Shown: positions 1,505 through 29,120 of the stretch, in pieces
Position numbering within the stretch: position 1 is the stretch's first letter
Layout of the letters: each line of letters opens with the position of its first letter
NCBI RefSeq assembly: GCF_000341895.1
Contig: NC_020409.1
Coordinates: forward strand, 2,310,001-2,342,000
Length of the DNA: 32,000 bases
Direction: 5' to 3'
From: Pseudodesulfovibrio piezophilus C1TLV30
GTDB taxonomy: Bacteria > Desulfobacterota > Desulfovibrionia > Desulfovibrionales > Desulfovibrionaceae
Program-made: the position numbers and the translations under genes
The notes under the pieces: generated by a model
Databases searched by the model: none
The model's input: only the letters and a program-made list of their open reading frames with translations
What the model was told of the DNA's origin: nothing

Positions 1505-1513
1505 GATCAATCC

Positions 1514-2568: not shown

Positions 2569-2656
2569 ATACGCGAAACCGACAGTCGGGGCAAGCCTTG
2601 CACATCGTCACACACAGGTCATGCAGCGAACAAATGTGAGTGTGTATTGTCACTGC

Positions 2657-3289
2657 ATGAAGTGGAAATCCCTGCTCTGGCTCGAATTCCTGACCCTCTT
2701 TGGCGCTTTGCCCCTCGCCTATGCCCTGGGTCTGATCCCTCTGCCCAGAATCCCTATACTGTTGGTCATCTTCGCGGCCAGCCTGATTTATCTTGTACGA
2801 CACCCTGACTTCAATCACCGGGAACTGATACATGGGTTGCGCGGGCATTCAAGAGAAATTCGAAACATCTTCATCCGATCAGGCTGTGTCGCCGTCATCT
2901 GCATGGCTGCCGTCCTGATGATCGACCCATATCTGCTCTTTGGCTTTCCCCGAAGCCGTCCACTCTTGTGGCTCGGAGTAATGCTTCTGTATCCGCTCCT
3001 GTCCGCCTACCCGCAGGAGATCATCTACCGGGCATTTCTCTTCACCCGCTACAAATCCATTCTGCCGTCATCGTCGGTGATCCTCTGGGCCAGTACGCTG
3101 GCTTTCGCATTTCTGCATATCGTGTTCGCCAACTGGCTGGCTGTGGCATTCACCCTCCCGGCAGGATATATCTTCACGCGGACGTATGTCAGAACCGAAT
3201 CCCTGCTCCTGACATCCATGGAACACGCCCTGTACGGCTGTATTGTCTTTACCTCCGGCCTGGGCCGTTTCTTCTATACCCCATCATAA
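2657..3289 (+). CDS. CPBP-family (CAAX/Abi) intramembrane metalloprotease
   Basis: Track ORF 2504..3289 begins at a GTG and would run into the divergent gene. ATG 2657 (MKWKSLLWLEFLTLFGALPLAYALG) gives a 210-aa polytopic protein. Motifs seen: PQEIIYRAF (EExxxR-like), FAFLHIVF (FxxxH) and SMEHALYG (Hxxx). Confidence 0.7.
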   Translation: MKWKSLLWLEFLTLFGALPLAYALGLIPLPRIPILLVIFAASLIYLVRHPDFNHRELIHGLRGHSREIRNIFIRSGCVAVICMAAVLMIDPYLLFGFPRSRPLLWLGVMLLYPLLSAYPQEIIYRAFLFTRYKSILPSSSVILWASTLAFAFLHIVFANWLAVAFTLPAGYIFTRTYVRTESLLLTSMEHALYGCIVFTSGLGRFFYTPS

Positions 3290-3312
3290 AAAACCCCGGA
3301 GAGTTCCGGGGT
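3288..3312. terminator. Shared hairpin terminator between the convergent CPBP gene and the 11-gene operon
   Basis: The stem is ccccgga (3294..3300) paired with tccgggg (3305..3311), with a gagt loop. An A6 run on the plus strand precedes it, which reads as a T-run after the hairpin on the minus strand. That makes it a good rho-independent terminator for the minus-strand operon and a weaker one for the plus strand. Confidence 0.6.
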
Positions 3313-3347: not shown

Positions 3348-3788
3348 TTATTTATCCGATATTGTGAACGACCCTTTGGTCTTCTGCCCATCATCGTCCC
3401 AAAATATTTCAATTGAGCATTTGGCCTTGTCTTTCTTGCGACTCAGTTTCATTTCGAAAAAAACTTCCTCTGCCACACCGAGGCTGACGGTCTGTTCTCC
3501 ATCCCTGACCCTGATAAGCCCGCTTTCCAATGAGTGCGTCAAATCTTTGAGGTGGGTAACGACCTGCTCTATTCCCATGGTTTCCTTGATCTTGACCTTG
3601 GCCTTTTCCATTATTTTCTCCTTGTTGGCGGGACCGGAATCAGGTGGCAGAAAAAAACCGCCGTTTGCGACGACCGGAATCGGAGTGAGACCGGTCGTAT
3701 CGGTGATCGGGATCTCCACCGGTTTGGCAACGGCATTGGGATCAACCCAACTCAACGGATTGGCTCCGAGCCTCTTGTCACTACTCAT
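3348..3788 (-). CDS. amphi-Trp-domain protein with an N-terminal extension; candidate ParA partner
   Basis: Track ORF 3348..3929. I prefer the internal ATG at 3788 (MSSDKRLGANPLSWV...), which has GGGAG 5 nt upstream and overlaps the ParA stop by 8 nt (ATGAGTAG). The C-terminal ~70 aa (IEQVVTHLKDLTHSLESGLIRVRDGEQTVSLGVAEEVFFEMKLSRKKDKAKCSIEIFWDD) aligns by eye with the two other amphi-Trp ORFs, including the terminal Trp. Confidence 0.7.
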   Translation of the reverse strand: MSSDKRLGANPLSWVDPNAVAKPVEIPITDTTGLTPIPVVANGGFFLPPDSGPANKEKIMEKAKVKIKETMGIEQVVTHLKDLTHSLESGLIRVRDGEQTVSLGVAEEVFFEMKLSRKKDKAKCSIEIFWDDDGQKTKGSFTISDK

Positions 3789-4542
3789 GGGGTCTCCCTC
3801 GACGAAGCACTTCCAGAGCCAGGTTCCGATAGTCGGCGGCCCCATTGCTGCGTGGTTTGTAGGTGAATATGTCCTGCCCGAAACTCGGTGCTTCAGCCAG
3901 GGAGATGTTGTCGCGGATACTCGTTTCAAGAAGGTCGCCCTTGAAATAGTCCCGGATATTGCGTTGAATTTCTCGATTCAGTTTCTTCTGTCGCTGAAAT
4001 CGGGTCAGCACGATACCGGCCAGGGCAAGATGCGGATTCCACCCGGACCTGATGGCTCCCACGGTTTCCATCAGCTTGCCGAGACTTTGCAGGGCGAGAA
4101 ATTCGGGTTGAACCGGAACCAATAATTCGGTTCCCGCCACGAGCGCATTCAATGAAAGTAATCCGAGGTTCGGCGGACAATCCATGAGGCAGAAATCATA
4201 CCCCTCAACACCCTCAAGAGCCGCCTTGAGTCGGGTTTCACGATTCCCGACTCCAGCCAGCTCCACTTCGGTTCCGGCCAGGGCCACCGAAGCGGGAACA
4301 ACGTCCAGATCCCCAACCCTGCGAGCAACGTCGGCAAGGGCGCATTCGCCCGTCAGCACGGCTCCCATGGTGCGTGGTAACTCATGAGCCATGATCCCCA
4401 GTGAATACGTCAGATGCGCCTGGGGATCGAGATCGAGCAGAAGCACACGCTGCTTTTGCCGAGCAAGGCCAGCACCGAGATTGACCGTTGTCGAGGTCTT
4501 ACCGACCCCACCCTTCTGATTAAGAATGACGAGTGTTCGCAT
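3781..4542 (-). CDS. ParA/Soj/MinD-family P-loop ATPase (orphan, no ParB nearby)
   Basis: 253 aa. MRTLVILNQKGGVGKTSTTVNLG carries the deviant Walker A KGGxxGK[ST]. Also present are LLLDLDPQ, MDCPP (Walker B region) and a typical ParA C-terminal half. Confidence 0.9.
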   Translation of the reverse strand: MRTLVILNQKGGVGKTSTTVNLGAGLARQKQRVLLLDLDPQAHLTYSLGIMAHELPRTMGAVLTGECALADVARRVGDLDVVPASVALAGTEVELAGVGNRETRLKAALEGVEGYDFCLMDCPPNLGLLSLNALVAGTELLVPVQPEFLALQSLGKLMETVGAIRSGWNPHLALAGIVLTRFQRQKKLNREIQRNIRDYFKGDLLETSIRDNISLAEAPSFGQDIFTYKPRSNGAADYRNLALEVLRRGRPHE

Positions 4543-4579: not shown

Positions 4580-4759
4580 CTATTGGGTGACGAGAGCGAT
4601 CTTGCGAATCACGTATTCCCGTCCATGTTCATCCGTTACCTTGTTGATTCGCGAAAGTATTTTCTCCCGTTCTTCATCCTCCAGATTTTCCTCGTCACGA
4701 ATACAGAACAGGTCACAGACTTCCTTCCATTCGAAACTTCGCTTGGTTTCCTGAGTCAT
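4580..4759 (-). CDS. Small acidic hypothetical protein (59 aa), below the ORF-track length cutoff
   Basis: My translation is MTQETKRSFEWKEVCDLFCIRDEENLEDEEREKILSRINKVTDEHGREYVIRKIALVTQ*. A strong SD (GGAGGAAACA) sits immediately before the ATG at 4759. The ORF fills the otherwise empty 247-nt gap between two operon genes on the same strand. Confidence 0.6.
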   Translation of the reverse strand: MTQETKRSFEWKEVCDLFCIRDEENLEDEEREKILSRINKVTDEHGREYVIRKIALVTQ

Positions 4760-4789: not shown

Positions 4790-5296
4790 TCATTTTTTCG
4801 GCTTTGTGGCCGCAACGTGACGCGAAGCGGTCTTCTTGGCCGGAGATTTTTTGGCAGAAGCCTTTTTTTTCACGGTTTTCTTTTCTGCGGAAGGACCGGC
4901 AACCGGCGATGTCACTGCCGGCGGTTCGGCTGAGACCCTTTCGGCCGGGACCGCGCTCACCTTTTCCGCCGGAACAGCAGCAGGTTGAACGGCAGTCATC
5001 TCCGATCCCGGACTTGTGACCGGAGCCAGATCATCTTTAGGGATTGTATCGCCAATGACGAAATCACCATTGCTCCCCTCGGTCCATGTCAGCTCAAAAG
5101 AAAATTTCTGTTTGCCTTTCTTGACCTTGGCCTCAACTTCAATCCCCACGGTTTCCGCCGGAGTCAGGCTGACATGATCACCATCACGACTGACGACGAT
5201 AGTACCGGATTTGAAGCTCTCAAGCAGGGCCTCCATGTAGGCGACTGCCTCAGTGTAGGTCAGGGTCATCTTAACGTCGATTTTCTGCTTTTCCAT
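4790..5296 (-). CDS. amphi-Trp-domain protein with a Pro/Ala repeat linker and a Lys-rich histone-H1-like tail
   Basis: The N-terminal 73 aa (…AYMEALLESFKSGTIVVSRDGDHVSLTPAETVGIEVEAKVKKGKQKFSFELTWTE) are paralogous to 10182..10448. A tandem AVPAEKVS/AVPAERVS repeat follows (4931..4978). The tail is AEKKTVKKKASAKKSPAKKTASRHVAATKPKK (4793..4888). GAGGAAGG lies upstream of the ATG. Confidence 0.8.
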   Translation of the reverse strand: MEKQKIDVKMTLTYTEAVAYMEALLESFKSGTIVVSRDGDHVSLTPAETVGIEVEAKVKKGKQKFSFELTWTEGSNGDFVIGDTIPKDDLAPVTSPGSEMTAVQPAAVPAEKVSAVPAERVSAEPPAVTSPVAGPSAEKKTVKKKASAKKSPAKKTASRHVAATKPKK

Positions 5297-5324: not shown

Positions 5325-6509
5325 CTATGTCAGTGAGAGCAGCACCCGTGTCAGGTTGTGCTCGTCAATCAAGGGGCTGCTTGCCTCGGTTACCAGTGGA
5401 CAATCAATGACCTTCAATCCCATTGCCTCCAGTTCCCTGCGGCCAAGGCCACCCTGATAACGCCCCTGTTTCGTATCAACTACCACGAATTCGACACCGA
5501 CTCCATGCTCAGGCGCTCCACTTTGGTGCAGATACGTGTTGAGCAAAGCAGCCTGATCGGCCACACTCAACCCCTGCGCCTCTGGATCATTGCCGGTATT
5601 GGGAACAAAAACCTTGGGGCATGTATTGGCCGCGACTGCCTCTCCCACGCCATATGGCAGCAAATTGGCAACGACGCTGGAATAGAAGCTTCCAATAGGG
5701 TAGCAGATGAGGTCTGCCTCGGCGATACGCTCTTTGATCTTGTTGCGTACAGATGCCGTGACCGATTCCTGGCTGGTTAGGGAATCGGTCAACCAAATAT
5801 CACGGATGGGCGTGACGAGAGGAGCTGTCTCCTTGCCCGTAATGGCATGTTGGCCCACGATGACATTGCCATCCTCCAGCCGCACGGCCAGGTGCAAGTC
5901 CTTGTTGATCGTCGGCCGCACAATGCCACACACCTGCACCAGCTTGGAAAATATGTAGATGACCGGATCGAGCTGACGCCTGTTTTGCAGATACCCTGCC
6001 GTGAGCACTAGGTTGCCGATACTGGCTCCCTTGAGATCGAAATCTGTCGGCATGATATCCATGAACTGATGAAAATGATTTCGTATGATCTTGCGCATGG
6101 GATCGGGAATGGCACGCACCAGCGGATGTCTTCCCGCTGCCATGCTCTCCAGCTCGGCCTCCAGGTCGGCCTGTTTGGATTCTTTGGAAAGCCGATGGGC
6201 AAAGAGATCAAATATGGCGGGGTTGCCCTTCACTGATTGATCGGCCAAAGCCATGAGTCGATTGCGAATATCACCGACCGCAGGCATGCCGAACGCGCCC
6301 CGGATGACAGCTGAACTGCCCCCGGAATCAAAAGGGGTGATCAAGTGGATGGAATTATGGGTATAACAGATCAATTCGCGCGAAGTTTTGCGGAGGGCGG
6401 TTCCACCACTGAAAAAGAGAATCCTCGGTCCCAATTCCGGGGATTTTCGATATAATTCCAGCTTGAACGGGTCGGGGATTTCGACCTCTCTGGTAACGCT
6501 GATCCGCAT
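5325..6509 (-). CDS. CofD/YvcK-family protein (from memory, named 'GAK system CofD-like protein')
   Basis: 394 aa. ILFFSGGTALRKTSRELICYTHNSIHLITPFDSGGSSAVIRGAFGMPAVGDIRNRLMALAD matches the GGGTG…D(S/D)GGSSG…GDxRN core of the CofD/YvcK (UPF0052) family. GGGAG lies 5 nt upstream of the ATG. Confidence 0.8.
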   Translation of the reverse strand: MRISVTREVEIPDPFKLELYRKSPELGPRILFFSGGTALRKTSRELICYTHNSIHLITPFDSGGSSAVIRGAFGMPAVGDIRNRLMALADQSVKGNPAIFDLFAHRLSKESKQADLEAELESMAAGRHPLVRAIPDPMRKIIRNHFHQFMDIMPTDFDLKGASIGNLVLTAGYLQNRRQLDPVIYIFSKLVQVCGIVRPTINKDLHLAVRLEDGNVIVGQHAITGKETAPLVTPIRDIWLTDSLTSQESVTASVRNKIKERIAEADLICYPIGSFYSSVVANLLPYGVGEAVAANTCPKVFVPNTGNDPEAQGLSVADQAALLNTYLHQSGAPEHGVGVEFVVVDTKQGRYQGGLGRRELEAMGLKVIDCPLVTEASSPLIDEHNLTRVLLSLT

Positions 6510-6527
6510 GGCTACTCCCTGCCTATC

Positions 6528-7619
6528 TCAAGACAGTATGCCGGTTTCCATATACTTCAGACAGATATCAGCGGCCTTTTCAAAATCAACCCCTCCGGAA
6601 ATCTCGATAAGGTTTGTCCGGGAGAGCATGTCGGCATATGCCTCGATCCCCGGATCTTCCCGGCGGTCCGGATTTTGTGGCAGATAGAACAGGCCCGTCC
6701 CCTTCATGAAGGCAGGCAGCAGATCCTCACGGTCGTGGGGATCGACCAGTGCCACGCGCATATCACCGCCCTCCCGCTTCCAGTTGAGTATGACGAGAGC
6801 ATCCATGGTGCTTTTCAGGGAAAACCTGCCCGGACCGTAGCACTCATCAATAAGAGCATCATATTTATGCTCCAATTGCCACAAATCCTCCGTGGGCATG
6901 GCAAGGAACTCTTCACGGAGTTCAGATTCCACTATCCGGCTCAGGTCTGGATTATTCAAGGCGGTTCCAGGGTTGATCCGTGGTTGTTTGGCAACACCGA
7001 ACATGGTCAGTCCTTCACCGCTCTCCTCGACCATGATTCTGTCATTACTGACAAAAGTCGTGCCCTTGCTCATCAGATGCAGGGCCAATGTGGACTTCCC
7101 CGCACCGGAAAAACCAGCCAATGATATTCCGCGTTCATTGTGAATAACTCCGGCAGCATGCCCAAGAAACCCACCCATGTTGAGCTTCCACTCTATGAAT
7201 CTGTTGTTGATGAAGTTGATAACCTGGTTGGAATTGTCCAGGCAGGGACCTATGGCGCAATTTTCACCCTGACCAAAAATAAAATGCATGCCTGTTAGCC
7301 TCTTGCGGACAATTCTGCCGTCAGCCAGGTCCACCCATTCTTCCTTGATTTTGGTTTTTCCCGGATCCGGTGTTTTGACGGAAAAATCAAAATCAAGAGC
7401 CAGGGTATGACACTCGTGAGCAGAGACTGTAATCATCGCAGCCCCGGAAGTGGTGACAAACTCCTTGAAATAGTCAGCCAAGGCTTCATGCAAGGCCGCA
7501 GTGGAACTGTCCACCCGGATGAGACACCCGCCGAAATCGAGAAAAAGGGTATGCGTCGCCGGTATGTCATTCCTGATCCGGCCGACCAGCTCTTCTCTGG
7601 TGTTTCCTGTCAACTTCAT
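6528..7619 (-). CDS. HprK-related P-loop kinase
   Basis: Track ORF 6528..7625. ATG 7619 is preferred because GGAG sits 8 nt upstream and it forms an ATGA overlap with the ATP-grasp stop. ISLAGFSGAGKSTLALHLMSKGTTFVSNDRIMV resembles the HPr kinase/phosphorylase Walker A region plus the downstream (V/A)xDD-type motif. Confidence 0.7.
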   Translation of the reverse strand: MKLTGNTREELVGRIRNDIPATHTLFLDFGGCLIRVDSSTAALHEALADYFKEFVTTSGAAMITVSAHECHTLALDFDFSVKTPDPGKTKIKEEWVDLADGRIVRKRLTGMHFIFGQGENCAIGPCLDNSNQVINFINNRFIEWKLNMGGFLGHAAGVIHNERGISLAGFSGAGKSTLALHLMSKGTTFVSNDRIMVEESGEGLTMFGVAKQPRINPGTALNNPDLSRIVESELREEFLAMPTEDLWQLEHKYDALIDECYGPGRFSLKSTMDALVILNWKREGGDMRVALVDPHDREDLLPAFMKGTGLFYLPQNPDRREDPGIEAYADMLSRTNLIEISGGVDFEKAADICLKYMETGILS

Positions 7620-8488
7620 CTGCATTTCTCCATAACGTATTCAACATATCGCGCTGCGGCATCGATACCGCTGGTTTCCTGTATACCGCGAAATCCTCCG
7701 AAGGCAGAGACCTCGAAGACAAAAGGCCCGTCATCGGTGATGGCTACATCCACACAGGTAAAATCCAGGTTGAACCGGGATTGTGCCTTGCGGGCCAATT
7801 CGATGATATCCGGTGAAGGTTCATAGGAGCGGTATTTTCCACCGGATTCCGTGGTGGTATTCCACGCGCCATTGGTCTTGCACCGGGCATAAGTGGTCAG
7901 ATATTCGCCGCCAAGAAAAGCGATGCCAAGATCAAGATCGCCCAGTTCGATGGTCTTCTGGATGTACATGATCGGATTTTCCGCCTTGTATGCCTCAATG
8001 GCCTTGCGAGCCTCGGGACCATCCTTCAGTATGAACATTCCCCGCGCCTTGGAAGTGTAGAGCGGCTTGAAAACGGCCTCGCCATATTCTGCCATGGCAA
8101 CCAGCGCCTGATCCACACTTTCGGTTATGGTGGTGGGTGGCATGGGAATATCGGCCAGTTGCAGGGAGATGGTACAGCTCAACCGGTCGAGCACTCTGAG
8201 AATTGAATAGGCCGAGCTGAAAATCTTCAACCCGCGCTCCTGAAGATACCGGAGCACTTCCAATCTATCGAGCAGGTCCGGCGAGTACCTGGACCCTATT
8301 TTCTTGATGATCAGTGCGTCAAAGTCTCTCAGGTTGTGGCCGTTATAGTAGGCATTGCCTGAGGGAAGATCGAGACGGACATCTTCCATGCCGATAAGTA
8401 CACGTTCTTCGCCGGTCTTGTCGGCCACGGTATCGGCGAGCTTTTCCGACGACCAGCCGCCTTTGGTTCCGATGACTCCTATTTTCAC
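7616..8488 (-). CDS. RimK-type ATP-grasp ligase (from memory, named 'GAK system ATP-grasp enzyme')
   Basis: 290 aa with a GTG start and AAGGAG 7 nt upstream. Size and layout fit the RimK/CofF/MptN family: an N-terminal pre-ATP-grasp region, FKPLYTSKARGMFILKD (Lys loop), MYIQKTIE, and a C-terminal FVFEVSAFGGFRG (Mg-ATP site region). Confidence 0.75.
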   Translation of the reverse strand: MKIGVIGTKGGWSSEKLADTVADKTGEERVLIGMEDVRLDLPSGNAYYNGHNLRDFDALIIKKIGSRYSPDLLDRLEVLRYLQERGLKIFSSAYSILRVLDRLSCTISLQLADIPMPPTTITESVDQALVAMAEYGEAVFKPLYTSKARGMFILKDGPEARKAIEAYKAENPIMYIQKTIELGDLDLGIAFLGGEYLTTYARCKTNGAWNTTTESGGKYRSYEPSPDIIELARKAQSRFNLDFTCVDVAITDDGPFVFEVSAFGGFRGIQETSGIDAAARYVEYVMEKCR

Positions 8489-8524
8489 GAAATAACTCCT
8501 TGAAACTGGCTGATGCTGGTTGTT

Positions 8525-10177
8525 TTAAAAGTAAAGAACATCTTCGGGCAGAGAAAATTTTTCCCATGGCCCACCCTGATAATGGTGAATCTTTTCCAAC
8601 AGGAACATGGACCGGTTATACATTTCCTTGGCGAATTTGTAGTTCAGTTCGAACCGGGTGGAAGTGTAGAATGAACGGGCCAGGGCAAAGGCCATGCGCG
8701 CTTCAAAGGTGGCGTCCTCATGCTGCTGGGCGAATCCTTTGGCAAAGCGGTAGAACTGCCGAATGACATGATTGATACGACCACGATGTTCGGCATCAAA
8801 AACCGGCATACGAAAGTTCGAGATCAGAAAAACCGAAGCGTCCTGAATGTAGTCGAAATCACGCGACCGGTAGAGGTCTATATAATGCACTTGCTGAGCT
8901 TCATGATTGTAAACGACATTATTGATATTAAAATCGCCATGAATGAAGACTGAAAAAGGTGCTTCCAATTCGTTTTCTATCACCGCACAGTGCTTGAGCA
9001 GTTCCTCGGTGGATTCGACCTCGGAGCGACCGAGTGATTTGGGAGTCCGCCAGAATTCGGGGTGCGTTTGCAGCACCCCCTCCAATCGGGACTGGACCTG
9101 CCTGATATAGTTCGTCTTGATGGGGGTCGGGTCCAGTGTCTGAGTCCAGGTCTCCAAAACCGTTGACTCGAAAACGAACAAGGCATTGCGGGCAAATTCA
9201 TCCTCCCCTGAAAGGACTATCTCATCCAGGGTACACCCGTTGAGAAACTCGACCAGCATGGCCCCTTTGTCGCCATCTTCATGAAATCCGTAAATATCAG
9301 CCACCAGATTTGGGAACGTCTGTTTCCAGCGTTGAATCGATTCCCGTTCCTTGCGAATTTTTTCCAGGCTTCCTTCTTTGTAAATAGACCCCTGACGCAC
9401 ATCTTCAGCTCCCATCACATCATCACGCTGCTCAACCTTGCCGATGCGACACCCTGAGCGGGTCCCCCATATGGCCCTGAAATCGATATCCGCAAAAGAA
9501 TCGCTGAAGCCGGACTTGCTCAGGGTTTGCTGCAATGCGTCAAACTGTTCTATCTTGATACGCTCGCCCAGCAGGGAAAAAATGATCGCTTCACCAATGT
9601 TGAGCAGGGCGTCACCCACCCGCTCGAAATACCGGAAGATGAAAAGAACCGTGACCAGACTTTGAGCTTCCCGCCCCATGCCCATTTCATTCATCACACG
9701 ATCAAAACGGACCTTGTAGACCGAATCGAGCATGGGTTCGGACTTGCAGATAAAAAGAGCCTTGGACATGTCTTCCTCGTGATACGCCACCAAAATAATG
9801 GCCAATCGTTCGAGGATGATGTCAAAGACCTCGTTATAGTCATATTTCTGGATGAATGATTGCTCGTCGAGATATCTCATCTGCTTGACTATATTAACAA
9901 AATAGTCTGCTATCTTTTCCAGATTCACACACATGACCTGCATGGCGCGTATCTTGTTCAACTGATTCTTATCCAATGATTTATCCGAATGGATACGGGA
10001 ATAACATTTGTTTTCGATGATTGTTTTCAAATTATCGATGTAGTCATCGCGGGACGTGATCTTCGAGTGGCGTTTTCTGGTTGGGGAATCCATGAAGGCG
10101 CGGGTTGACCGGGCCTGATTTTCGACTTCAAGAACCATGAACTTGAAATTTTCGTCCAGTCCTTCAAAAGTAATCAT
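8525..10177 (-). CDS. Fusion protein: N-terminal PhoU-like repeat domain plus C-terminal APH/choline-kinase-type phosphotransferase
   Basis: 550 aa. PhoU-like signatures: SRDDYIDNLKTIIENKC, VNLEKIADYFVNI and FRYFERVGDALLNIGEAIIF. Kinase signatures: FIHGDFNINNVVY (HxDxxxxN catalytic loop) and VHYIDLYRSRDFDYIQD (metal-binding D). Confidence 0.7.
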   Translation of the reverse strand: MITFEGLDENFKFMVLEVENQARSTRAFMDSPTRKRHSKITSRDDYIDNLKTIIENKCYSRIHSDKSLDKNQLNKIRAMQVMCVNLEKIADYFVNIVKQMRYLDEQSFIQKYDYNEVFDIILERLAIILVAYHEEDMSKALFICKSEPMLDSVYKVRFDRVMNEMGMGREAQSLVTVLFIFRYFERVGDALLNIGEAIIFSLLGERIKIEQFDALQQTLSKSGFSDSFADIDFRAIWGTRSGCRIGKVEQRDDVMGAEDVRQGSIYKEGSLEKIRKERESIQRWKQTFPNLVADIYGFHEDGDKGAMLVEFLNGCTLDEIVLSGEDEFARNALFVFESTVLETWTQTLDPTPIKTNYIRQVQSRLEGVLQTHPEFWRTPKSLGRSEVESTEELLKHCAVIENELEAPFSVFIHGDFNINNVVYNHEAQQVHYIDLYRSRDFDYIQDASVFLISNFRMPVFDAEHRGRINHVIRQFYRFAKGFAQQHEDATFEARMAFALARSFYTSTRFELNYKFAKEMYNRSMFLLEKIHHYQGGPWEKFSLPEDVLYF

Positions 10178-10181
10178 CGTG

Positions 10182-10448
10182 TTAACTGACCTTCAAGGGT
10201 GTCTCGTTCACATCCCTGGTCCCGGTACAGTCCTTCCAGCTTACCCGAATGGACAACTTGGTCTCGGTCCCCTTTTTTTTGGCTTTGACAGTAAAATTGA
10301 GCAACCCCTCCGGCTTAAGCACAATAGCATCGCCATTGGTGGACAAGGTTATGCTCCCCTTGTCAAAACCATCGGTCAGGGACACCAGAAAATTCTTGAT
10401 GGTGTCGCAATCCTGCAACGAATCAAACACAAATTTTTCTTCTGACAT
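10182..10448 (-). CDS. amphi-Trp-domain protein (stand-alone, 88 aa)
   Basis: MSEEKFVFDSLQDCDTIKNFLVSLTDGFDKGSITLSTNGDAIVLKPEGLLNFTVKAKKKGTETKLSIRVSWKD… comprises an amphipathic helix, a beta hairpin, a Lys-rich turn and a strand ending in Trp. AAGGAGA lies 5 nt upstream of the ATG, and the stop lies 4 nt before the next gene. Confidence 0.8.
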   Translation of the reverse strand: MSEEKFVFDSLQDCDTIKNFLVSLTDGFDKGSITLSTNGDAIVLKPEGLLNFTVKAKKKGTETKLSIRVSWKDCTGTRDVNETPLKVS

Positions 10449-10467
10449 TCATCTCTCCTTGAAGAGG

Positions 10468-11631
10468 CTAGCCTGCGAGGCGTTCCTTGTATTCCTTGAT
10501 AATGGTCCGGCGACTGATGTTGTTGACTATGAGTCGCTTGCGGATACTCAGGTCATCCCATGCGGGCTGGAATCCTATCTCCCTGCCCGCCTTGGCACTA
10601 TCCTGCTGATTGACCGGCTTTGTCTTCTCGCCCATGTGACAATCGTCTCCCATGAAGATAAGCGTCTCGCGCTCGCCCCCTCGTCGCCTCTGATTCTGCT
10701 CATTGACCACGGAGATGAGAAATTCAGTATATTCCTGTGATTGAGGATTCCAGACCTCGATGCCGTCAACATCATAATTGCGTAACAGGATGGGCCAGAA
10801 TTCCTCGGGATGCGGAATGACCACGCACCCGCCAAGGGAACGGACTTCCTCGATCACTTCGCTGGCCCGGTAGAAAAAGGAAAGATTGAACTCGGCCTTG
10901 ACCAACTGCTTGACCGCTTTGAGATACGCCTGCACACGATTCACGGCGGTATCTCCAAGCTCCGGACGCATGGAATCAAACCAGTTCCGAAGCAACTTGT
11001 TTTTGACAGACATTCTCGGCACGTCTTTCCAATGATCATCAAGCATCCGCTCTATCTTGGCGACATTAATCCGAACAAACTCGATAAGCTCACGGTCTGC
11101 TCCCGTGGCCTTGGCCGCCTTGTGGAGACGTTCCTCGTGAGGTCTGGTAATAGTGTGCATAAACTCGAAGAGCTGACCTGATCTGTATTTGAACGTATGG
11201 GCCAGCATGGACTTGAGCACTCCGGCCTCCTGCACACGATCATTGGAAAAATGCAGCAGCAACTGCACTTTGCGGTTGAACCCGCTGGAATAGCAGTCCA
11301 CTTCCACGCCAGAGTAATCCCCCCAACTCATAAGCACATTGTGTTGTGTGGGGATCAGCAGTTCCTCCTTGCGATTGGGAAACATGGCGTCCACCCGTTT
11401 ACGGATGTATTCCATGGGGACAAACTCCGGATGCCAATGGGCAGCGAGAAGCGCCTCCTGCCGGACATACACATTGGAAGGCGTCACCACCTGCTCGATC
11501 TGCCATGGCTCCAAGTCCGTGGAAACCACGGCAAAGAACCGGGACTGATCGTCCTCGCTCACTTCTTCGGAGGCCACTCCAGGGAAAATCCGGCACTCCA
11601 CCTTTTCATCATCCTGCTTGATCAATTGCAT
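10468..11631 (-). CDS. PHP-domain-like phosphoesterase (tentative)
   Basis: Track ORF 10468..11640 begins at a GTG that overlaps the GGAAG SD. ATG 11631 sits 8 nt after that SD. PHP-like metal-ligand motifs: AAHWHPEF (HxH), VVIPHPEEFW…DGIEVWNPQS, and LIFMGDDCHMGEK (GxDxH). Confidence 0.5.
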   Translation of the reverse strand: MQLIKQDDEKVECRIFPGVASEEVSEDDQSRFFAVVSTDLEPWQIEQVVTPSNVYVRQEALLAAHWHPEFVPMEYIRKRVDAMFPNRKEELLIPTQHNVLMSWGDYSGVEVDCYSSGFNRKVQLLLHFSNDRVQEAGVLKSMLAHTFKYRSGQLFEFMHTITRPHEERLHKAAKATGADRELIEFVRINVAKIERMLDDHWKDVPRMSVKNKLLRNWFDSMRPELGDTAVNRVQAYLKAVKQLVKAEFNLSFFYRASEVIEEVRSLGGCVVIPHPEEFWPILLRNYDVDGIEVWNPQSQEYTEFLISVVNEQNQRRRGGERETLIFMGDDCHMGEKTKPVNQQDSAKAGREIGFQPAWDDLSIRKRLIVNNISRRTIIKEYKERLAG

Positions 11632-11655
11632 CGCCATCACTTCCGGTTGGGTATT

Positions 11656-12186
11656 TCAGTCATACTTGGCATGACAGCGACTCTTTTCATGAACGAGGAC
11701 ATCTATCGTCTCGTGCATTCTGCCCATGTCACCGGATTCATGCGCTTCACGAAATGCCTCACATGCTCTGGTATAGTCCTCATAATATTCATCACCATAG
11801 CCGGGATAGCTCACCATCAGGGCGGAATCCTCCAGAAATGAAACCACAGCTTCATCCGGTGGCATCTGCCCGTCATGAATCAACTTGACCAACATCCTGA
11901 AGCTCTGCTTCATCCGCTTCTTGAGGCTCTTGTATTTTGGCTTGGCGGGCGAACCGTCCGATTGCATACCATCGACATCAGGCACGCATTCCTTGCCCGA
12001 CTTGAATTTGCCTTTGACAGAGATCTTCCCGAATTCGTTCTTTCCGCTGATCTTGAATTTAATACAATCCTCGACACAGGGAAATTCATCGGAATTCCCT
12101 TGCTCCAGAGCATCAGCCAAATTCCGAAAAAAATCCGGTAATTCCTTGAGATCAATATATTTCACGATCTTCGATTCGTTTCCCAT
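11656..12186 (-). CDS. XXXCH-domain protein; first gene of the operon
   Basis: 176 aa. The C-terminus is …DMGRMHETIDVLVHEKSRCHAKYD (the xxxCH motif). The N-terminal ~60 aa (LPDFFRNLADALEQGNSDEFPCVEDCIKFKISGKNEFGKISVKGKFKSGKE) look like a Trp-less amphi-Trp fold. GGAG lies 8 nt upstream of the ATG. Confidence 0.7.
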   Translation of the reverse strand: MGNESKIVKYIDLKELPDFFRNLADALEQGNSDEFPCVEDCIKFKISGKNEFGKISVKGKFKSGKECVPDVDGMQSDGSPAKPKYKSLKKRMKQSFRMLVKLIHDGQMPPDEAVVSFLEDSALMVSYPGYGDEYYEDYTRACEAFREAHESGDMGRMHETIDVLVHEKSRCHAKYD

Positions 12187-19909: not shown

Positions 19910-22357
19910 CTACGAGTTATCCTTGAGTTCGTCCTCGTCATCCATCACAAGGTCAAATCCGGCGACCTTATTCTTGCTGTCCATACGAACCAGACGGACT
20001 CCTTGAGTGGCCCGACCACGTGTCTGACTGATTTCACCCACAGACATGCGGATAATCTTGTTGGCAGTCGTCAGAAGAATAACATCGTCGGACTCATTCA
20101 CCATACGTGCCCCAATGACCTTGCCGGTCTTATTGGTCAGACGCATGTTCAGGATTCCCTTTCCGCCTCGTGACTGCTGCCGGTATTGATCAATACCGGT
20201 CCGTTTACCAAAACCACCTTCAGAGACAGTCAACAACTGATCACGCTCAGGGTCACCGGTCACAACGCAGGAAACGACTTCATCATCGCCGCGCAGGGCC
20301 ACGCCCTTGACTCCGGCAGTGGCCCGACCAAGTGGCCGCGCATCGTTGATATTGAATCGAATGGCTGACCCTTCACGAGTAGCGAGAATACAATCAACAT
20401 CCGGTTCGATCTCCCGAACCATCATCAACTCATCCCCCTCACGCAGATTCACGGCCTTGATCCCCGTAGCGCGGCAGTTGCCGTACAAGCCTATGGAGGA
20501 ACGCTTGATCATCCCCTTGCGCGTAACGAACAGGAAGAACCTGTCATCATCGAATTCGCGCAAAGAAAGGGCAGTGGCGATAAACTCGTCCTTATCAAGA
20601 GGGAGCAGGTTATTCACATGTCCACCTTTGGCGTAGCGGCTTCCTTCCGGAACCTGATGGACCTTGATTTTGAACATCTTACCCTGATTGGTAAAAAGCA
20701 CCAGATGCTGATGGTTTGTCGTCAGCATGAAGGTATGGATAAAGTCGCCGTCACCAGTCTGAACTCCAGAAATTCCCTTTCCACCCCGACGTTGCGCCGT
20801 GTAGTTGGAAAGCGGAGTCCGTTTGATATATCCACGATTGGACAAGGTGATGACAGTCTCTTCGTCAGGAATGAGGTCTTCTATATCAATGGTATCGGGA
20901 TTGGCCATCAACAGTTCGGATTTACGCGGTGTGGCATAGTTTTCCTTGATCTCGACCAACTCGTCCCGAATAACCCCCTTGAGGACATCTTCGTTTTCCA
21001 GAATAGACTTGAAGTATTCAATTTTCTTCATCAGTTCAGTCAATTCTTCCAGAAGTTTGTCTTGTTCCAGCCCAGTAAGCTTCTGCAAGCGCATATCCAG
21101 AATGGCCTTGGCCTGAATTTCTGACAATTCAAAGCGTTCCATAAGAGAAACACGAGCTTCGTCAGGAGACCCGGATGCCCGGATCAATTTGACCACTTCA
21201 TCAATATTATCCAGCGCGATACGAAGTCCCTCAAGGATGTGAACACGCTTCTCGCACTTGTCGAGATCAAACTTGGTACGGCGAATAATTACTTCACGCC
21301 GATGATCCAGGAAGTAACTTAAAACTTCTTTCAAATTCAACAACATCGGACGCTTACCAACAACGGCCATCATGTTGATGCCGAAGCTCGTTTCCAATGG
21401 GGTGAATTTGTAAAGCGAATTGATGATGATATCGGCAATAGCACCTCGTTTGAGATCCATGACGATGCGGATACCGTTTCGATCCGACTCATCTCGCAAA
21501 TCAGCTATTCCATCAATTTTCTTTTCATGAACAAGGGCGGCTATTTTTTCCACCAGGCTGGACTTATTCAGGGCAAAGGGAATCTCCTTGATGACAATCG
21601 ATTCCTTTCTGCCCTTTTTCGCTTCTTCAACTTCAACAACACCGCGAATCTTGATGGAGCCACGTCCGGTGGTGTAGGCATCATACAATCCCTGTCCGCC
21701 ATAGACCATTCCCCCGGTCGGAAAATCCGGTCCTTTGACATGTTCCATCATCGATTCAACAGTACAGCCCGGATTATCAAGCAAATGGACGGTTCCGTCG
21801 ATGAGTTCGCCAAGGTTATGCGGCGGAATATTGGTGGCCATACCAACCGCAATACCTGTTGTTCCATTGAGAAGCAGGTTGGGAACTTTGGTCGGCAGGA
21901 CAGATGGTTCCTGCATGGTGTTATCGTAGTTGGGCCTGAAATCAACGGTTTGTTTTTCGATATCGCCGAGAAATTCCGAGCACAACCGCGCCATGCGAAC
22001 TTCCGTATAACGCATGGCAGCTGCGGCATCTCCGTCAATCGAACCGAAGTTACCCTGTCCATCGACCAGCATGTCGCGCATGGAAAAATCCTGCGCCATA
22101 CGGACCAATGCATCATACACGGCCGAATCACCATGTGGATGGTACTTACCGATGACATCACCGACCACTCGCGCGGATTTCTTGTAAGCCCGGTTATGGT
22201 AATTTCCTAAATCGTGCATGGCGAAAAGAATACGCCTGTGGACCGGTTTCAGTCCGTCCCGTACATCGGGAATGGCACGACCAATAATGACCGAAAGAGA
22301 ATACTCAAGGTAACTTTTCTTGAGTTCACTTTCGATGGTAATCGTATCTTTAATCAT
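19910..22357 (-). CDS. gyrA: DNA gyrase subunit A
   Basis: 815 aa with [32 protein letters not shown], the [21 protein letters not shown], and the active-site AAAMRYTE. The C-terminus has a beta-pinwheel with the GyrA box QRRGGKG. GGAGG lies 7 nt upstream of the ATG. Confidence 0.98.
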
Positions 22358-22625
22358 TCAAATGCCTCCGGCGGCTTAAGAACCCATTATGACGAATTCT
22401 TAAGAATCTCCTAAACGTTGTGTTTGCACACCGCCTGACAGAATATGTCAGATTGCCGATTCAACATGGCGGTATGATGGAGCTTCTCTAATTTATACAG
22501 ACACGAATTCCGTTTCCGGTTTCGTCTCGTGTTTCTCCTGGTGGTATCGGAGCAACCCGACCCTTTTTCAAAGATATCTTCTGTTCCCTGCCTTTTGACG
22601 CAATAAAGAACAGTTCAAATGACAA

Positions 22626-22658: not shown

Positions 22659-22670
22659 CTTTTTGTGAAA

Positions 22671-25070
<2,400 letters not shown>

Positions 25071-26240
25071 CTAAGCATTTTCCTCTGTGTAGTAAGTCTC
25101 TTCCTGAATCATCATTGGCATCACGATCACGTTATAGTCACGATCGTCAACACCGGAAACGCCGCAGGGAGCTTCGGTTCCGGTGAGGGTGAATTTCACC
25201 GTGTCGGAATTGAAGTGGTTGAGTATGTCTATGAGGTTCCGAGTAGGGAACGCAATACGCTTCATATCGCCGCTGAAGGTGGCGTCAATGGATTCCTGAG
25301 CCGTCCCCGTCTCTTGACCTTGGGCCGAGACTAAAACTTCGCTCCCGTCGAATTTAAAGTAGGCGCAGCGATTGGAATCAGTGTTGAACAGGGCGACACG
25401 CGAAAGGGCATCCACCATTTCATGACGGTTCACTTCCAGGGTGGAAACATCATCATCATTCAATTTTGCCAGAAAATTCTGGTAGTTGGGATATTGGTAA
25501 TAGGACAGGGGCAGAGTAAATGTTTCTCTCTGGTCGCCAGTGCGGAAGAAAAGGCGTTTGTCGCTGATTGCCAGCTCTATTTCATCGGCTGTCAGCCATT
25601 TTTTCAATTCAGACAGATATTTTTTCTGGATCAGAACGCCTTCTTCCGGGAGCATGGAATAGATATCGTCGTTGACAAAATTGAACATGGCGAACTGGTG
25701 ACCATTGAGCCCGCAGACTTCCACTTTTTTGACTCCCATGATCTCGCGAGGAACAAGATAGATGCAGGCAATGGCCTCCATGGAGTCTTCATCGGAAATG
25801 CAGAATGAGATTTTATCGATAATCTCATGCAAAAAATCACCTGACCAGAAGACGGTTCCCTTCTCGGGAAATGTGGAGAATTTCTGGAACCATTCCGGAT
25901 CATTTACTGGAAATTTGTATTTTCTTGCTTTTTGCTCCACCACCACATTGGTCGAACTTTCATCCGTACGGATCGTCAACTCTCCCTGGTCAGAACGCAA
26001 CTGCTTGACCAGATCATAGAAAGCGCGCCCTTGAACTCCGGCCAATCCTTCCCCATCGATACTGGCTGGGTATGATCCCATGAATTCGAGATTGGAATCC
26101 GTGGACATCACATTGATGCTTCCATTTTCGCATTGCAGCCAGATGGTACGCAGGAAAGCTGCTCCGGTTTTGGCCGGGATAATGTTGGCCGACTTCTGGA
26201 GGCCTTCGATAATTTCATCTCTGTTCACTTTCAAAAACAT
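25071..26240 (-). CDS. dnaN: DNA polymerase III beta sliding clamp
   Basis: 389 aa. MFLKVNRDEIIEGLQKSANIIPAKTGAAFLRTIWLQ is a typical DnaN N-terminus, and the length fits three domains. It sits between dnaA and gyrB. AAGGAG lies 9 nt upstream of the ATG. Confidence 0.93.
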   Translation of the reverse strand: MFLKVNRDEIIEGLQKSANIIPAKTGAAFLRTIWLQCENGSINVMSTDSNLEFMGSYPASIDGEGLAGVQGRAFYDLVKQLRSDQGELTIRTDESSTNVVVEQKARKYKFPVNDPEWFQKFSTFPEKGTVFWSGDFLHEIIDKISFCISDEDSMEAIACIYLVPREIMGVKKVEVCGLNGHQFAMFNFVNDDIYSMLPEEGVLIQKKYLSELKKWLTADEIELAISDKRLFFRTGDQRETFTLPLSYYQYPNYQNFLAKLNDDDVSTLEVNRHEMVDALSRVALFNTDSNRCAYFKFDGSEVLVSAQGQETGTAQESIDATFSGDMKRIAFPTRNLIDILNHFNSDTVKFTLTGTEAPCGVSGVDDRDYNVIVMPMMIQEETYYTEENA

Positions 26241-29101: not shown

Positions 29102-29120
29102 GCTGTGAACTAAATATAAA

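What the first reader, a model, noticed from the sequence alone, without database searches (positions are those of the whole stretch)
3348..4542. Orphan ParA ATPase embedded in the operon and translationally coupled to an amphi-Trp protein
A canonical Soj/ParA-type ATPase (KGGVGKT deviant Walker A) sits inside an enzyme operon with no ParB or parS partner. Its stop overlaps by 8 nt the start of a 146-aa protein. That protein's N-terminus (MSSDKRLGANPLSWV) is a short basic peptide followed by an LGxxPLxW pattern. This is loosely reminiscent of the N-terminal ParA-stimulating peptides of ParB, McdB and similar adaptors. Its C-terminus is an amphi-Trp domain. ParA-like ATPases with a dedicated adaptor are known to position non-chromosomal cargo on the nucleoid, for example carboxysomes and chemoreceptor arrays. 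This arrangement suggests the products of this operon form a spatially organised cytoplasmic assembly.
Basis: partly seen in the sequence, partly recalled or inferred. Interest (0 to 1): 0.7.

Follow-up and report, generated by a model that had tools for sequence, protein, structure and literature searches.

The report
ParA ATPase with amphi-Trp cargo adaptor
At the end of an uncharacterised enzyme operon in a deep-sea sulfate reducer sit a ParA positioning ATPase and a small protein carrying a conserved ParA-docking peptide, which suggests the operon's products form a body that the cell positions or partitions.

Summary
A 253-aa Soj-like ParA (4542..3781, minus strand) overlaps by 8 nt a 146-aa protein (3788..3348). 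They are the last two genes of a complete GAK cluster in Pseudodesulfovibrio piezophilus.

The 146-aa protein has three parts: a conserved N-terminal peptide (MSxDKRLGANPLxWV), a variable disordered linker, and an amphi-Trp domain.

Comparative evidence supports the adaptor reading.
- All 16 distinct peptide-bearing amphi-Trp genes examined lie directly downstream of a ParA, with or without a GAK cluster.
- The same [KR][LM]Gx[DN]PLxW[IV] peptide heads other proteins downstream of the closest ParA relatives. These include ribbon-helix-helix-like small proteins, a CheW protein, a PAS protein and a DUF4177 protein.
- More distant relatives carry ParB-like GGLDSLLG peptides.
- The ParA is not the chromosomal Soj. 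It is 43% identical to Soj references, has no parB or parS nearby, and belongs to a separate clade.

There are limits.
- The pair is a lineage-restricted add-on, found in 7 of 80 GAK loci surveyed.
- The cargo is inferred, not shown.
- Nucleoid binding is uncertain, because three of four canonical DNA-contact positions are not basic.
- No complex model or experiment was possible.

I read it as a new cargo-specific variant of the ParA/partner positioning principle.

The parts
3781..4542 (-). ParA/Soj-type deviant Walker A ATPase, 253 aa
   Evidence: ORF. Pfam AAA_31 2.9e-47. PDB hits 8RAY at 1e-53 and 1WCV at 3e-50. It is below the curated cut-off of every specific NCBIfam model; the best, ParA_partition, scores 103 against 180.
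4495..4515 (-). Deviant Walker A motif KGGVGKT (residues 10-16), including the signature lysine K10
   Evidence: Read from the sequence. Invariant in alignments A3 and A4.
3348..3788 (-). 146-aa ParA partner (adaptor): peptide, linker and amphi-Trp domain
   Evidence: Independently called on contig L170.
3744..3788 (-). N-terminal peptide MSSDKRLGANPLSWV (residues 1-15), the proposed ParA-binding and ATPase-stimulating motif
   Evidence: M1, R6, G8, P11, L12 and W14 are invariant in 31 homologues. The same motif occurs in about 16 50%-identity clusters. It also occurs on unrelated domains downstream of related ParAs.
3606..3743 (-). Disordered linker of variable length and sequence (residues 16-61)
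   Evidence: The alignment shows no conservation and length variation. AF2 pLDDT block means for residues 11-60 are 36-61.
3396..3605 (-). Amphi-Trp domain (residues 62-131; beta-alpha-beta-beta-beta-beta), the proposed cargo-binding module
   Evidence: TIGR04354 and PF20068 hits. AF2 block pLDDT 71-86. It is 39% identical to the domain of the neighbouring 168-aa amphi-Trp protein.
3781..3798 (-). Coupling junction: GGGAG Shine-Dalgarno (3798-3794), adaptor ATG (3788-3786) and ParA stop TAG (3783-3781), giving an 8-nt overlap
   Evidence: Read from the sequence. The equivalent junction in relatives is a 4-nt overlap.
3293..3312 (-). Intrinsic terminator that ends the operon
   Evidence: 8-bp stem with 6 G-C pairs, followed by a T run.
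4790..5296 (-). 168-aa amphi-Trp protein with a Lys/Ala/Pro-rich tail resembling histone H1. It is the closest paralogue of the adaptor's domain and a candidate binding partner or cargo component
   Evidence: The tail is Lys-rich in all ParA-positive loci.
5325..12186 (-). GAK core genes upstream in the same operon, in transcription order: XXXCH protein, 390-aa unknown, 88-aa amphi-Trp, PhoU-kinase fusion, ATP-grasp, HprK-related kinase B, CofD-like. They are the presumed source of the cargo
   Evidence: NCBIfam models TIGR04358, TIGR04354, TIGR04356, TIGR04355 and TIGR04357 score above their cut-offs. Gene order is identical in L001-L005.
4580..4759 (-). 59-aa acidic ORF between the 168-aa amphi-Trp gene and parA; probably not part of the ParA module
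   Evidence: Homologues occur in L002-L005, L009 and L011-L013, and also in L008, which lacks ParA. It is absent from L001 and L010, which have ParA. No Pfam hit.

Best explanation
The last two genes of this GAK operon are a two-gene ParA positioning module.

**Shown**
- The ATPase is a Soj-like ParA with intact catalytic motifs.
- It belongs to a clade distinct from chromosomal Soj.
- Its downstream partners all begin with a [KR][LM]Gx[DN]PLxW[IV] peptide.
- In this lineage that peptide is joined by a disordered linker to an amphi-Trp domain.
- The pair is strictly co-inherited and translationally coupled.

**Inferred**
- The amphi-Trp domain attaches the adaptor to an assembly that contains the other amphi-Trp proteins of the GAK cluster. 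The most likely contact is the 168-aa paralogue with its lysine-rich tail.
- ParA-ATP dimers bound to a matrix, probably the nucleoid, then distribute or partition that assembly by the usual diffusion-ratchet mechanism.

The module existed on its own as ParA plus a peptide-amphi-Trp protein, and was appended to the 3' end of the GAK cluster in the Pseudodesulfovibrio lineage.
For: **Peptide conservation.** Six residues are invariant in 31 homologues, against an unconserved linker of variable length. AF2 predicts residues 1-60 as disordered and 62-131 as folded.

**Linkage to ParA.** A ParA lies immediately upstream, with overlapping stop and start or a 2-nt gap (L088), in every context read.
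- L001-L006.
- L007 and L009-L014.
- L088.
- P0207 and P0173.

Flanking genes differ between these loci.

**Portability of the peptide in the same ParA clade.**
- RLGADPLAWL on a PAS protein.
- RLGADPLAWI on an amphi-Trp protein with no GAK cluster nearby.
- RLGKDPF on a DUF4177 protein.
- RMGSDPLS on a CheW protein.
- [KR][LM]GSDPLxWI on small proteins of about 110 aa that look like ribbon-helix-helix proteins.

More distant ParAs have partners with ParB-like GGLDSLLG peptides. One control locus has a canonical ParB starting RRGLGRGLNSLL.

**Phylogeny.** In a neighbour-joining tree the GAK-linked ParAs are monophyletic. Their sister group is the amphi-Trp-linked ParAs found outside GAK clusters. 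Both nest among ParAs whose partners carry class A or B peptides. Soj references are 43% identical.

**Partner pocket.** Residues equivalent to M. xanthus ParA V116, L150, L152, L155, L187 and L192, shown experimentally to bind the ParB peptide (bioRxiv 10.1101/2025.03.14.642875), are V, L, L, L, A and W here.

**General principle.** Partner proteins use a disordered, positively charged N-terminus for the ATPase and the rest of the protein for cargo (PMC10241942).

**Domain kinship.** The adaptor's domain is 39% identical to the neighbouring amphi-Trp protein.
Against: - No interaction, ATPase or localisation data exist, and a complex prediction was not possible.
- The pair is absent from 73 of 80 GAK loci, including L008, whose CofD-like protein is 70% identical to the window's CofD-like protein. 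GAK function therefore does not need it.
- What amphi-Trp domains do or bind is unknown. There is no structural match in the PDB (best E 0.13) and essentially no literature.
- At the four positions that contact DNA in Soj (TtSoj R182/R194/R208/R211), the window ParA has Q, R, D and S. The equivalent of M. xanthus R238, whose mutation to Glu abolishes DNA binding, is Ser.
- A basic stretch (TRFQRQKKLNREIQRNIR, 9 K+R) remains, so the matrix is uncertain.
- The pocket covariation (L to W) is a single evolutionary event.
Confidence: 0.6

Rival explanations
1. The pair is a regulatory switch rather than a positioning machine. ParA-ATP sequesters or releases the amphi-Trp adaptor, on the nucleoid or elsewhere, to control the activity or availability of GAK enzymes or their substrates. 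This would resemble Soj acting on DnaA, or MipZ acting on FtsZ. No discrete cargo body is involved.
For: - The physical pairing and the peptide evidence fit this reading equally well.
- Related modules sit next to signalling genes. L087 has a PAS protein and a response regulator. The P0173 context has a response regulator. P0207 has a PhoU gene upstream.
- Canonical DNA-contact residues are only partly kept.
Against: - The closest ParA relatives pair with ribbon-helix-helix-like proteins and a CheW protein. Those are classical cargo-tethering architectures.
- The long flexible linker is typical of tethers.
- An amphi-Trp protein is among the 20 most abundant proteins in one Desulfobacterota proteome (PMC13490349). 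That fits a structural role better than a regulatory one.
Confidence: 0.15
2. The pair is a DNA-segregation cassette derived from type Ib plasmid partition systems. In this reading the amphi-Trp domain itself binds DNA, through its conserved basic hairpin SRKKDKAK, and acts as the centromere-binding protein.
For: - The nearest non-amphi-Trp relatives look like type Ib pairs: a small ParA plus a small ribbon-helix-helix-like protein with an N-terminal peptide.
- The amphi-Trp domain has an invariant Lys-rich loop.
- The neighbouring paralogue carries a tail resembling histone H1.
- In this genome the locus lies about 22 kb from dnaA.
Against: - There are no iteron or inverted-repeat arrays around the pair and no parS.
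- The pair is chromosomal and sits at the end of an enzyme operon in every genome examined.
- In L001 and L002 the cluster's 10-kb flanks contain no dnaA, and in two complete genomes it lies about 0.75 Mb from the record start.
- Amphi-Trp domains are mostly stand-alone proteins within enzyme clusters.
Confidence: 0.07
3. This ParA is simply the organism's chromosomal Soj with parB located elsewhere. The downstream amphi-Trp protein is functionally unrelated to it.
For: - Public annotation names it ParA, Soj or chromosome partitioning protein.
- The window contains dnaA, dnaN, gyrB and gyrA, so the gene is near the origin in this genome.
Against: - It is only 43% identical to Soj references and lies in a separate clade.
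- It scores below the NCBIfam ParA_partition cut-off.
- It is always coupled to a peptide-bearing partner.
- It is absent from most related Desulfovibrionaceae GAK loci and travels with the GAK cluster into different neighbourhoods.
- Arginines that contact DNA in Soj are substituted.
Confidence: 0.03

Closest known systems
Chromosomal ParABS (Soj/Spo0J; M. xanthus ParA-ParB, PDB 8RAY; T. thermophilus Soj 1WCV)
   Same: - The ATPase fold and motifs match (E 1e-53 and 3e-50), with no N-terminal extension and no membrane-targeting helix.
- The partner peptide resembles the ParB LGRGLxxLI motif: one basic residue and four large hydrophobic residues, with the basic residue at a different position.
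- Five of the six ParA pocket residues that bind that motif keep a large hydrophobic side chain and the sixth is Ala.
   Different: - The partner has no ParB fold, no CTPase and no DNA-binding domain, and there is no parS.
- The peptide has different spacing. Its basic residue comes before the LG, and it contains a [DN]-P element of the kind that often starts a helix.
- Three of the four DNA-contact positions in ParA are not basic.
- The ParA belongs to a separate clade.
Type Ib plasmid partition pairs (ParF/ParG of TP228; delta/omega of pSM19035), from my own knowledge of the family
   Same: - A small ParA of about 250 aa is followed by a small partner whose flexible N-terminal tail activates the ATPase.
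- The nearest relatives of this ParA are followed by proteins of about 110 aa. These carry the same peptide and a C-terminal segment that looks like a ribbon-helix-helix (TRATFI..E.L..LK..AY.ER..IK).
   Different: - Here the DNA-binding domain is replaced by an amphi-Trp domain.
- There are no centromere repeats.
- The context is a chromosomal operon.
- The ribbon-helix-helix assignment for the relatives is inferred from the sequence pattern only; there is no Pfam hit.
McdA/McdB carboxysome positioning
   Same: The logic is the same: a ParA-type ATPase plus an adaptor with an N-terminal ATPase-interacting region, a disordered segment and a cargo-binding part, encoded next to the cargo genes (PMC10241942).
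   Different: - McdA is a distant relative (E about 1e-16, against 1e-53 for ParA/Soj).
- There are no carboxysome or microcompartment genes here.
- The adaptor is unrelated to McdB.
ParC/ParP and PpfA/TlpT chemoreceptor-array positioning
   Same: The partner joins an ATPase-binding N-terminus to a cargo-specific domain. One member of this same ParA clade (L090) has the peptide fused to a CheW domain, which is the ParP-like solution.
   Different: The cargo domain here is amphi-Trp, not CheW, and there are no chemotaxis genes in the window.
GAK system (NCBIfam TIGR04354 to TIGR04358; function unknown)
   Same: The window carries a complete cluster in the conserved order, with every model scoring above its cut-off.
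   Different: ParA and the peptide-bearing amphi-Trp protein are not part of the family definitions. They occur in only 7 of 80 loci surveyed.

Membership tests
ParA/MinD deviant Walker A ATPases, ParA/Soj subgroup | Deviant Walker A motif KGGxGK[ST] with the signature lysine; Walker A' and Walker B aspartates | tested here: met
   KGGVGKT at residues 10-16. D37, D39 and D121 are invariant in A3 and A4.
ParA/MinD deviant Walker A ATPases, ParA/Soj subgroup | Full-length similarity to structurally defined ParA/Soj proteins, with no C-terminal membrane-targeting helix | tested here: met
   8RAY at E 1e-53 and 1WCV at 3e-50, aligned over residues 2-248 of 253. MinD and McdA hits are weaker than 1e-17.
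ParA/MinD deviant Walker A ATPases, ParA/Soj subgroup | Basic residues for non-specific DNA binding (BsSoj R189/K201/R215/R218 = TtSoj R182/R194/R208/R211; PMC6393308) | tested here: inconclusive
   The aligned residues are Q, R, D and S. Neighbouring R184, K186, K187 and R210 are basic, and the region holds 9 K+R against 5-6 in Soj.
ParA/MinD deviant Walker A ATPases, ParA/Soj subgroup | ATP-dependent dimerisation and partner-stimulated ATPase activity | not testable with these tools
   This needs biochemistry.
Chromosomal ParABS (Soj-Spo0J) | An adjacent parB gene and parS sites | tested here: not met
   No ParB domain was found among the window ORFs scanned. No parS was found with up to 3 mismatches.
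Chromosomal ParABS (Soj-Spo0J) | Orthology to chromosomal ParA (NCBIfam ParA_partition equivalog; clustering with Soj) | tested here: not met
   103 bits against a cut-off of 180. It is 43% identical to Soj references and sits in a separate neighbour-joining clade.
ParA partner (adaptor) proteins | Encoded next to the ATPase and co-inherited with it | tested here: met
   A ParA lies directly upstream in all 16 distinct peptide-bearing amphi-Trp genes examined.
ParA partner (adaptor) proteins | Conserved N-terminal peptide with basic and hydrophobic residues in a disordered region, separate from the cargo domain | tested here: met
   Invariant M1, R6, G8, P11, L12 and W14 followed by a variable linker. 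AF2 predicts residues 1-60 as disordered.
ParA partner (adaptor) proteins | The same peptide fused to different cargo domains within one ATPase clade (modularity) | tested here: met
   Seen on amphi-Trp, PAS, DUF4177, CheW, ribbon-helix-helix-like proteins and a protein with a C-terminal hydrophobic segment.
ParA partner (adaptor) proteins | Direct binding to the ATPase dimer and stimulation of hydrolysis | not testable with these tools
   No multimer prediction is available, and no experiment was possible.
McdAB carboxysome positioning | McdA-type ATPase with carboxysome genes nearby | tested here: not met
   McdA structures match only at about 1e-16. There are no carboxysome genes in the window.
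GAK system | Co-clustered TIGR04356 ATP-grasp, TIGR04355 kinase B, TIGR04357 CofD-like, TIGR04358 XXXCH and TIGR04354 amphi-Trp genes | tested here: met
   All score above their curated cut-offs: 450, 550, 548, 105 and 48-68 bits.
GAK system | ParA plus adaptor as a core component of the system | tested here: not met
   Present in 7 of 80 species-level loci. No ParA-like ORF lies within the flanks retrieved (up to 10 kb) in the other 73, some of which are short contigs.
Type Ib plasmid partition | Centromere repeats and a ribbon-helix-helix centromere-binding partner | tested here: not met
   No repeat arrays. The partner's domain is amphi-Trp.

The most novel reading that the evidence does not exclude
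GAK clusters, which are widespread in Desulfobacterota and of unknown function, may build a discrete protein body without a membrane, made of or coated by amphi-Trp proteins. In the Pseudodesulfovibrio lineage this body would have acquired its own ParA partition system. It would then be a previously unrecognised bacterial organelle or condensate. The [KR][LM]Gx[DN]PLxW[IV] peptide would be a general address tag that could be mined to discover further ParA cargos.
Probability: 0.3. Interest if true: 0.8.

Novelty: new variant of a known kind. Interest (0 to 1): 0.6.

Why it matters
**A functional clue for the GAK system.** The GAK system and the amphi-Trp domain have family models but essentially no literature in the library searched. 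A dedicated ParA adaptor built on an amphi-Trp domain is the first such clue. It suggests amphi-Trp proteins belong to something the cell needs to place or partition.

**An experimental handle.** The adaptor can be tagged and parA deleted in a cultivable Pseudodesulfovibrio.

**A searchable motif.** The survey shows that one ParA clade uses a recognisable N-terminal peptide on at least six kinds of partner protein. That motif can be used to find new ParA cargos.

**A natural experiment.** The clade also shows a DNA-binding domain being swapped for a protein-cargo domain.

Tried and rejected
- **Fold of the amphi-Trp domain.** Foldseek of the AF2 adaptor model against the PDB gave nothing significant (best E 0.13). 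The fold therefore gave no functional hint.
- **Literature.** 'amphi-Trp' occurs in one incidental proteomics table only. 'GAK system', 'HprK-related kinase' and 'XXXCH' returned nothing relevant.
- **Centromere search.** There is no parS and there are no iterons or tandem arrays near the pair.
- **The 59-aa ORF as a third component.** Rejected, because its presence is independent of ParA. L008 has it without ParA, and L001 and L010 have ParA without it.
- **The 88-aa amphi-Trp protein as the adaptor's closest paralogue.** Rejected, because BLASTP finds no similarity. The 168-aa protein is the closest.
- **DnaA boxes as evidence for the origin.** They are not enriched: 9 found against 6.8 expected.
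- **A second, canonical parAB in the genome.** This could not be checked, because only the window and 20-kb loci are accessible.
- **Pocket and peptide covariation.** The GAK clade has Trp at the position equivalent to M. xanthus ParA L192, and its peptides end in W-V rather than W-I. I note this but do not count it as evidence, because it is a single lineage event.
Full report
**1. What is there.**

The finding's region holds two minus-strand genes. The first is a 253-aa ParA-like ATPase (4542..3781) with KGGVGKT at residues 10-16. The second is a 146-aa ORF whose ATG (3788) lies 8 nt upstream of the end of the ParA stop codon (TAG 3783-3781). A GGGAG Shine-Dalgarno precedes that ATG by 5 nt. 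An independent gene call on a metagenome contig that encodes an identical ParA gives the same two genes and the same overlap.

ParA matches Pfam AAA_31 (2.9e-47) and CbiA. It falls below the curated cut-off of every specific NCBIfam family; ParA_partition scores 103 bits against 180. The 146-aa protein passes both amphi-Trp models.

Upstream, in one direction and with gaps of 28-37 nt, lie a 59-aa ORF, a 168-aa amphi-Trp protein and the full set of GAK genes. In order moving upstream from the amphi-Trp gene, the GAK genes are:
- CofD-like
- HprK-related kinase B
- ATP-grasp
- a PhoU-kinase fusion
- an 88-aa amphi-Trp protein
- a 390-aa protein with no family hit
- an XXXCH-domain protein

All the GAK models score far above their cut-offs. 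A strong intrinsic terminator at 3312..3293 follows the 146-aa gene. The pair is therefore the 3' end of the operon rather than embedded in it.

The ParA is 100% identical to a protein that NCBI names from Pseudodesulfovibrio piezophilus.

**2. The 146-aa protein has the anatomy of a ParA partner.**

Thirty-one homologues, 41-63% identical overall, share an N-terminus MSxDKRLGANPLxWV. M1, R6, G8, P11, L12 and W14 are invariant. A Pro/Ala-rich segment with no conservation and variable length follows, and then the amphi-Trp domain.

AlphaFold2 with this alignment predicts residues 1-60 as disordered. It predicts a beta-alpha-beta-beta-beta-beta domain at residues 62-131, with block pLDDT of 71-86.

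A profile search of 1.84 billion representative proteins finds 989 amphi-Trp proteins. Only about 16 clusters at 50% identity align from profile positions 1-3. Each of the 14 retrieved begins with a close variant of [RK][LV]Gx[DN]PLxW[ILV], with one divergent case (P0172). The peptide-bearing form is thus a small, distinct subfamily.

**3. Linkage to ParA is complete; linkage to GAK is not.**

Every context read for a peptide-bearing amphi-Trp protein has a ParA immediately upstream, with overlapping stop and start or, in L088, a 2-nt gap.
- Five homologues chosen across the identity range (L001-L006).
- Seven species-level genomes (L007 and L009-L014).
- A metagenome contig with no GAK cluster within 8 kb (L088).
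- Two divergent representatives.

In L001-L005 the whole GAK cluster is present in identical order, while the flanking genes differ.

I then scanned one genome per species for the GAK CofD-like protein. It has relatives in 246 species, and I read the best 80 loci with flanks of up to 10 kb. Only 7 carry the ParA and adaptor. All 7 are Desulfovibrio or Pseudodesulfovibrio, with CofD-like identity of at least 67%. None of the other 73 has any ParA-like ORF in the flanks retrieved, some of which are short contigs. L008 lacks the pair even though its CofD-like protein is 70% identical to the window's.

The pair is therefore an accessory module added to GAK in one lineage. It is not a core GAK component.

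**4. The peptide is a portable ParA-binding tag.**

ParA homologues show a gap between the GAK-linked set (at least 67% identical, almost all 251 aa) and the rest (62% or less). I read the gene downstream of ParAs outside the GAK-linked set.

| Locus | Downstream protein | N-terminus |
|---|---|---|
| L087, Desulfohalovibrio reitneri | 394-aa PAS protein, followed by a plain amphi-Trp protein and a response regulator | MPTRENRLGADPLAWL |
| L088 | amphi-Trp protein, no GAK cluster nearby | MSRETRLGADPLAWI |
| L089, Nitrospirota | DUF4177 protein | MTDKARLGKDPF |

A metagenome scan with a ParA alignment gave 80 more loci.
- Downstream of the closest ParAs are proteins starting [KR][LM]G[ST]DP[LF]xWI. 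Most are about 110 aa, with a C-terminal segment TRATFI..E.L..LK..AY.ER..IK. I read that segment as ribbon-helix-helix-like from its pattern only; Pfam has no hit.
- One partner is a 361-aa protein with a bona fide CheW domain (5.9e-35).
- One partner has a C-terminal hydrophobic segment that may span the membrane.
- More distant ParAs are followed by proteins starting KKxFxGGLDSLLG or MKGGLDGLL.
- One control locus has a canonical ParB starting RRGLGRGLNSLL.

The N-terminal motifs thus form a graded series. It runs from the classical ParB motif to the one in the window, and each form sits next to its own ParA clade.

In a neighbour-joining tree the 13 GAK-linked ParAs are monophyletic. Their sister group is the two ParAs paired with amphi-Trp adaptors outside GAK clusters. 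Next out is the clade whose partners carry class A or B peptides. Soj references are 43% identical.

**5. How it probably works.**

Established work on M. xanthus ParA-ParB shows that the ParB motif (L11, R13, L15, L18, I19) forms a short helix. [quoted passage not shown] Together with DNA it remodels the catalytic site (bioRxiv 10.1101/2025.03.14.642875).

The equivalent pocket residues in the window ParA are V, L, L, L, A and W. The adaptor peptide offers one basic pair (K5, R6) and four large hydrophobic residues (L7, L12, W14, V15). N10-P11 is placed where a helix could start; that last point is my inference.

Reviews of the family state the general rule. Partners use a charged, disordered N-terminus for the ATPase and the rest of the protein for the cargo (PMC10241942).

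I therefore propose that the peptide binds and activates ParA, and that the amphi-Trp domain ties the adaptor to the cargo. The adaptor's domain is most similar to the neighbouring 168-aa amphi-Trp protein (39% identity, E 3e-13), and shows no BLAST similarity to the 88-aa one. The simplest cargo model is therefore co-assembly with that paralogue.

**6. Weak points.**

- Nothing is known about what amphi-Trp domains do. There is no significant structural neighbour in the PDB. The only paper that mentions the domain lists such a protein among the 20 most abundant in a Dissulfuribacter proteome.
- The matrix is uncertain. At the four positions that contact DNA in Soj (PMC6393308) the window ParA has Q, R, D and S. 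The equivalent of M. xanthus R238, whose R238E variant lacks DNA binding, is Ser in the whole subfamily.
- The region is nevertheless unusually basic, with 9 K+R against 5-6 in Soj, and arginines lie one residue away from two of the canonical positions.
- No complex prediction could be run.
- The pair is dispensable for GAK clusters in most lineages.

**7. Rivals.**

- **A regulatory sequestration switch** fits the same pairing evidence and cannot be excluded.
- **A DNA-segregation cassette with a DNA-binding amphi-Trp domain** is disfavoured. There are no repeats and no parS, and the pair always sits at the end of an enzyme operon.
- **The chromosomal Soj** is disfavoured by phylogeny, by family cut-offs and by the partner linkage. 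Against that, the window does contain dnaA, dnaN, gyrB and gyrA about 15-24 kb away. This proximity to dnaA is not conserved: in L001 and L002 the cluster's 10-kb flanks hold no dnaA, and in L001 the neighbouring genes are different. In two complete genomes it lies about 0.75 Mb from the record start.

**8. Verdict.**

The adaptor interpretation is well supported by comparative genomics. The positioned-assembly interpretation is a reasonable but untested inference.

The finding is a new cargo-specific variant of the ParA/partner principle, attached to an uncharacterised enzyme system. Interest is moderate to high, for two reasons. It gives the first functional handle on GAK and amphi-Trp proteins. 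It also exposes a peptide tag that can be mined for other ParA cargos.

Noticed in passing
window 19910-27719 (minus strand); 25000-30000: The window carries dnaA (27719..26388), dnaN (26240..25071), gyrB (25070..22671) and gyrA (22357..19910). Cumulative GC skew turns from falling to rising at about 25-27 kb. AT-rich stretches lie at 26.0-26.5 kb and 29.0-30.0 kb. This is probably the chromosomal replication origin region, about 22 kb from the ParA gene. DnaA boxes (TTATCCACA, up to 1 mismatch) are not enriched: 9 found against 6.8 expected.
   Followed up: partly
window 4790-5296 (minus strand); L001-L086: The 168-aa amphi-Trp protein downstream of the CofD-like gene ends in a Lys/Ala/Pro-rich tail resembling histone H1 (KKTVKKKASAKKSPAKKTASRHVAATKPKK). 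The tail is Lys-rich in every ParA-positive locus. In ParA-negative loci it varies from Lys-rich to short and acidic. It could bind the nucleoid or another polyanion.
   Followed up: partly
window 4580-4759 (minus strand): A 59-aa acidic ORF (MTQETKRSFEWKEVCDLFCIRDEENLEDEE...) lies between the amphi-Trp gene and parA. It is conserved in a subset of Desulfovibrio and Pseudodesulfovibrio GAK loci whether or not ParA is present. It has no family hit.
   Followed up: partly
window 10468-11640 (minus strand): A 390-aa protein with no Pfam or NCBIfam hit occupies a fixed position in the GAK cluster. Its counterparts are 384-388 aa in L001, L002, L004 and L005. It is an unnamed core component of the system.
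   Followed up: no
L087 8001-10888: Desulfohalovibrio reitneri has an operon of ParA, a peptide-bearing PAS protein (394 aa), a plain 93-aa amphi-Trp protein and a LuxR-type response regulator, with overlapping start and stop codons. Here the ParA tag and the amphi-Trp domain are on separate proteins.
   Followed up: partly
L090 743-1828: The partner downstream of a ParA from the same clade has the peptide MARKSRMGSDPLS, a long Pro/Lys-rich linker and a CheW domain (5.9e-35). This is a ParP-like architecture for positioning chemoreceptor arrays. Its ParA has Lys at the pocket position equivalent to M. xanthus L187, and its peptide lacks the W-I pair.
   Followed up: partly
window 3781-4542; L001-L014: All 13 GAK-linked ParAs have Trp (GWNP) where M. 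xanthus ParA has the pocket residue L192. Nearly all other clade members have Leu, Ile or Met. Their partner peptides mostly end W-V rather than W-I, and mostly have N-P rather than D-P. This may be co-adaptation, but it is a single lineage event.
   Followed up: partly
P0297 (629 aa): An amphi-Trp domain is fused to the C-terminus of a calcineurin-like metallophosphoesterase. This hints that the domain can serve as a targeting or association module for enzymes.
   Followed up: no
window 758-3289: Three consecutive minus-strand ORFs (250, 165 and 186 aa, spanning 758-2568) have no Pfam hit. A plus-strand Rce1-like CAAX protease (2504-3289) converges on the operon's terminator. The same protease neighbour is seen in L002 and L170.
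   Followed up: no
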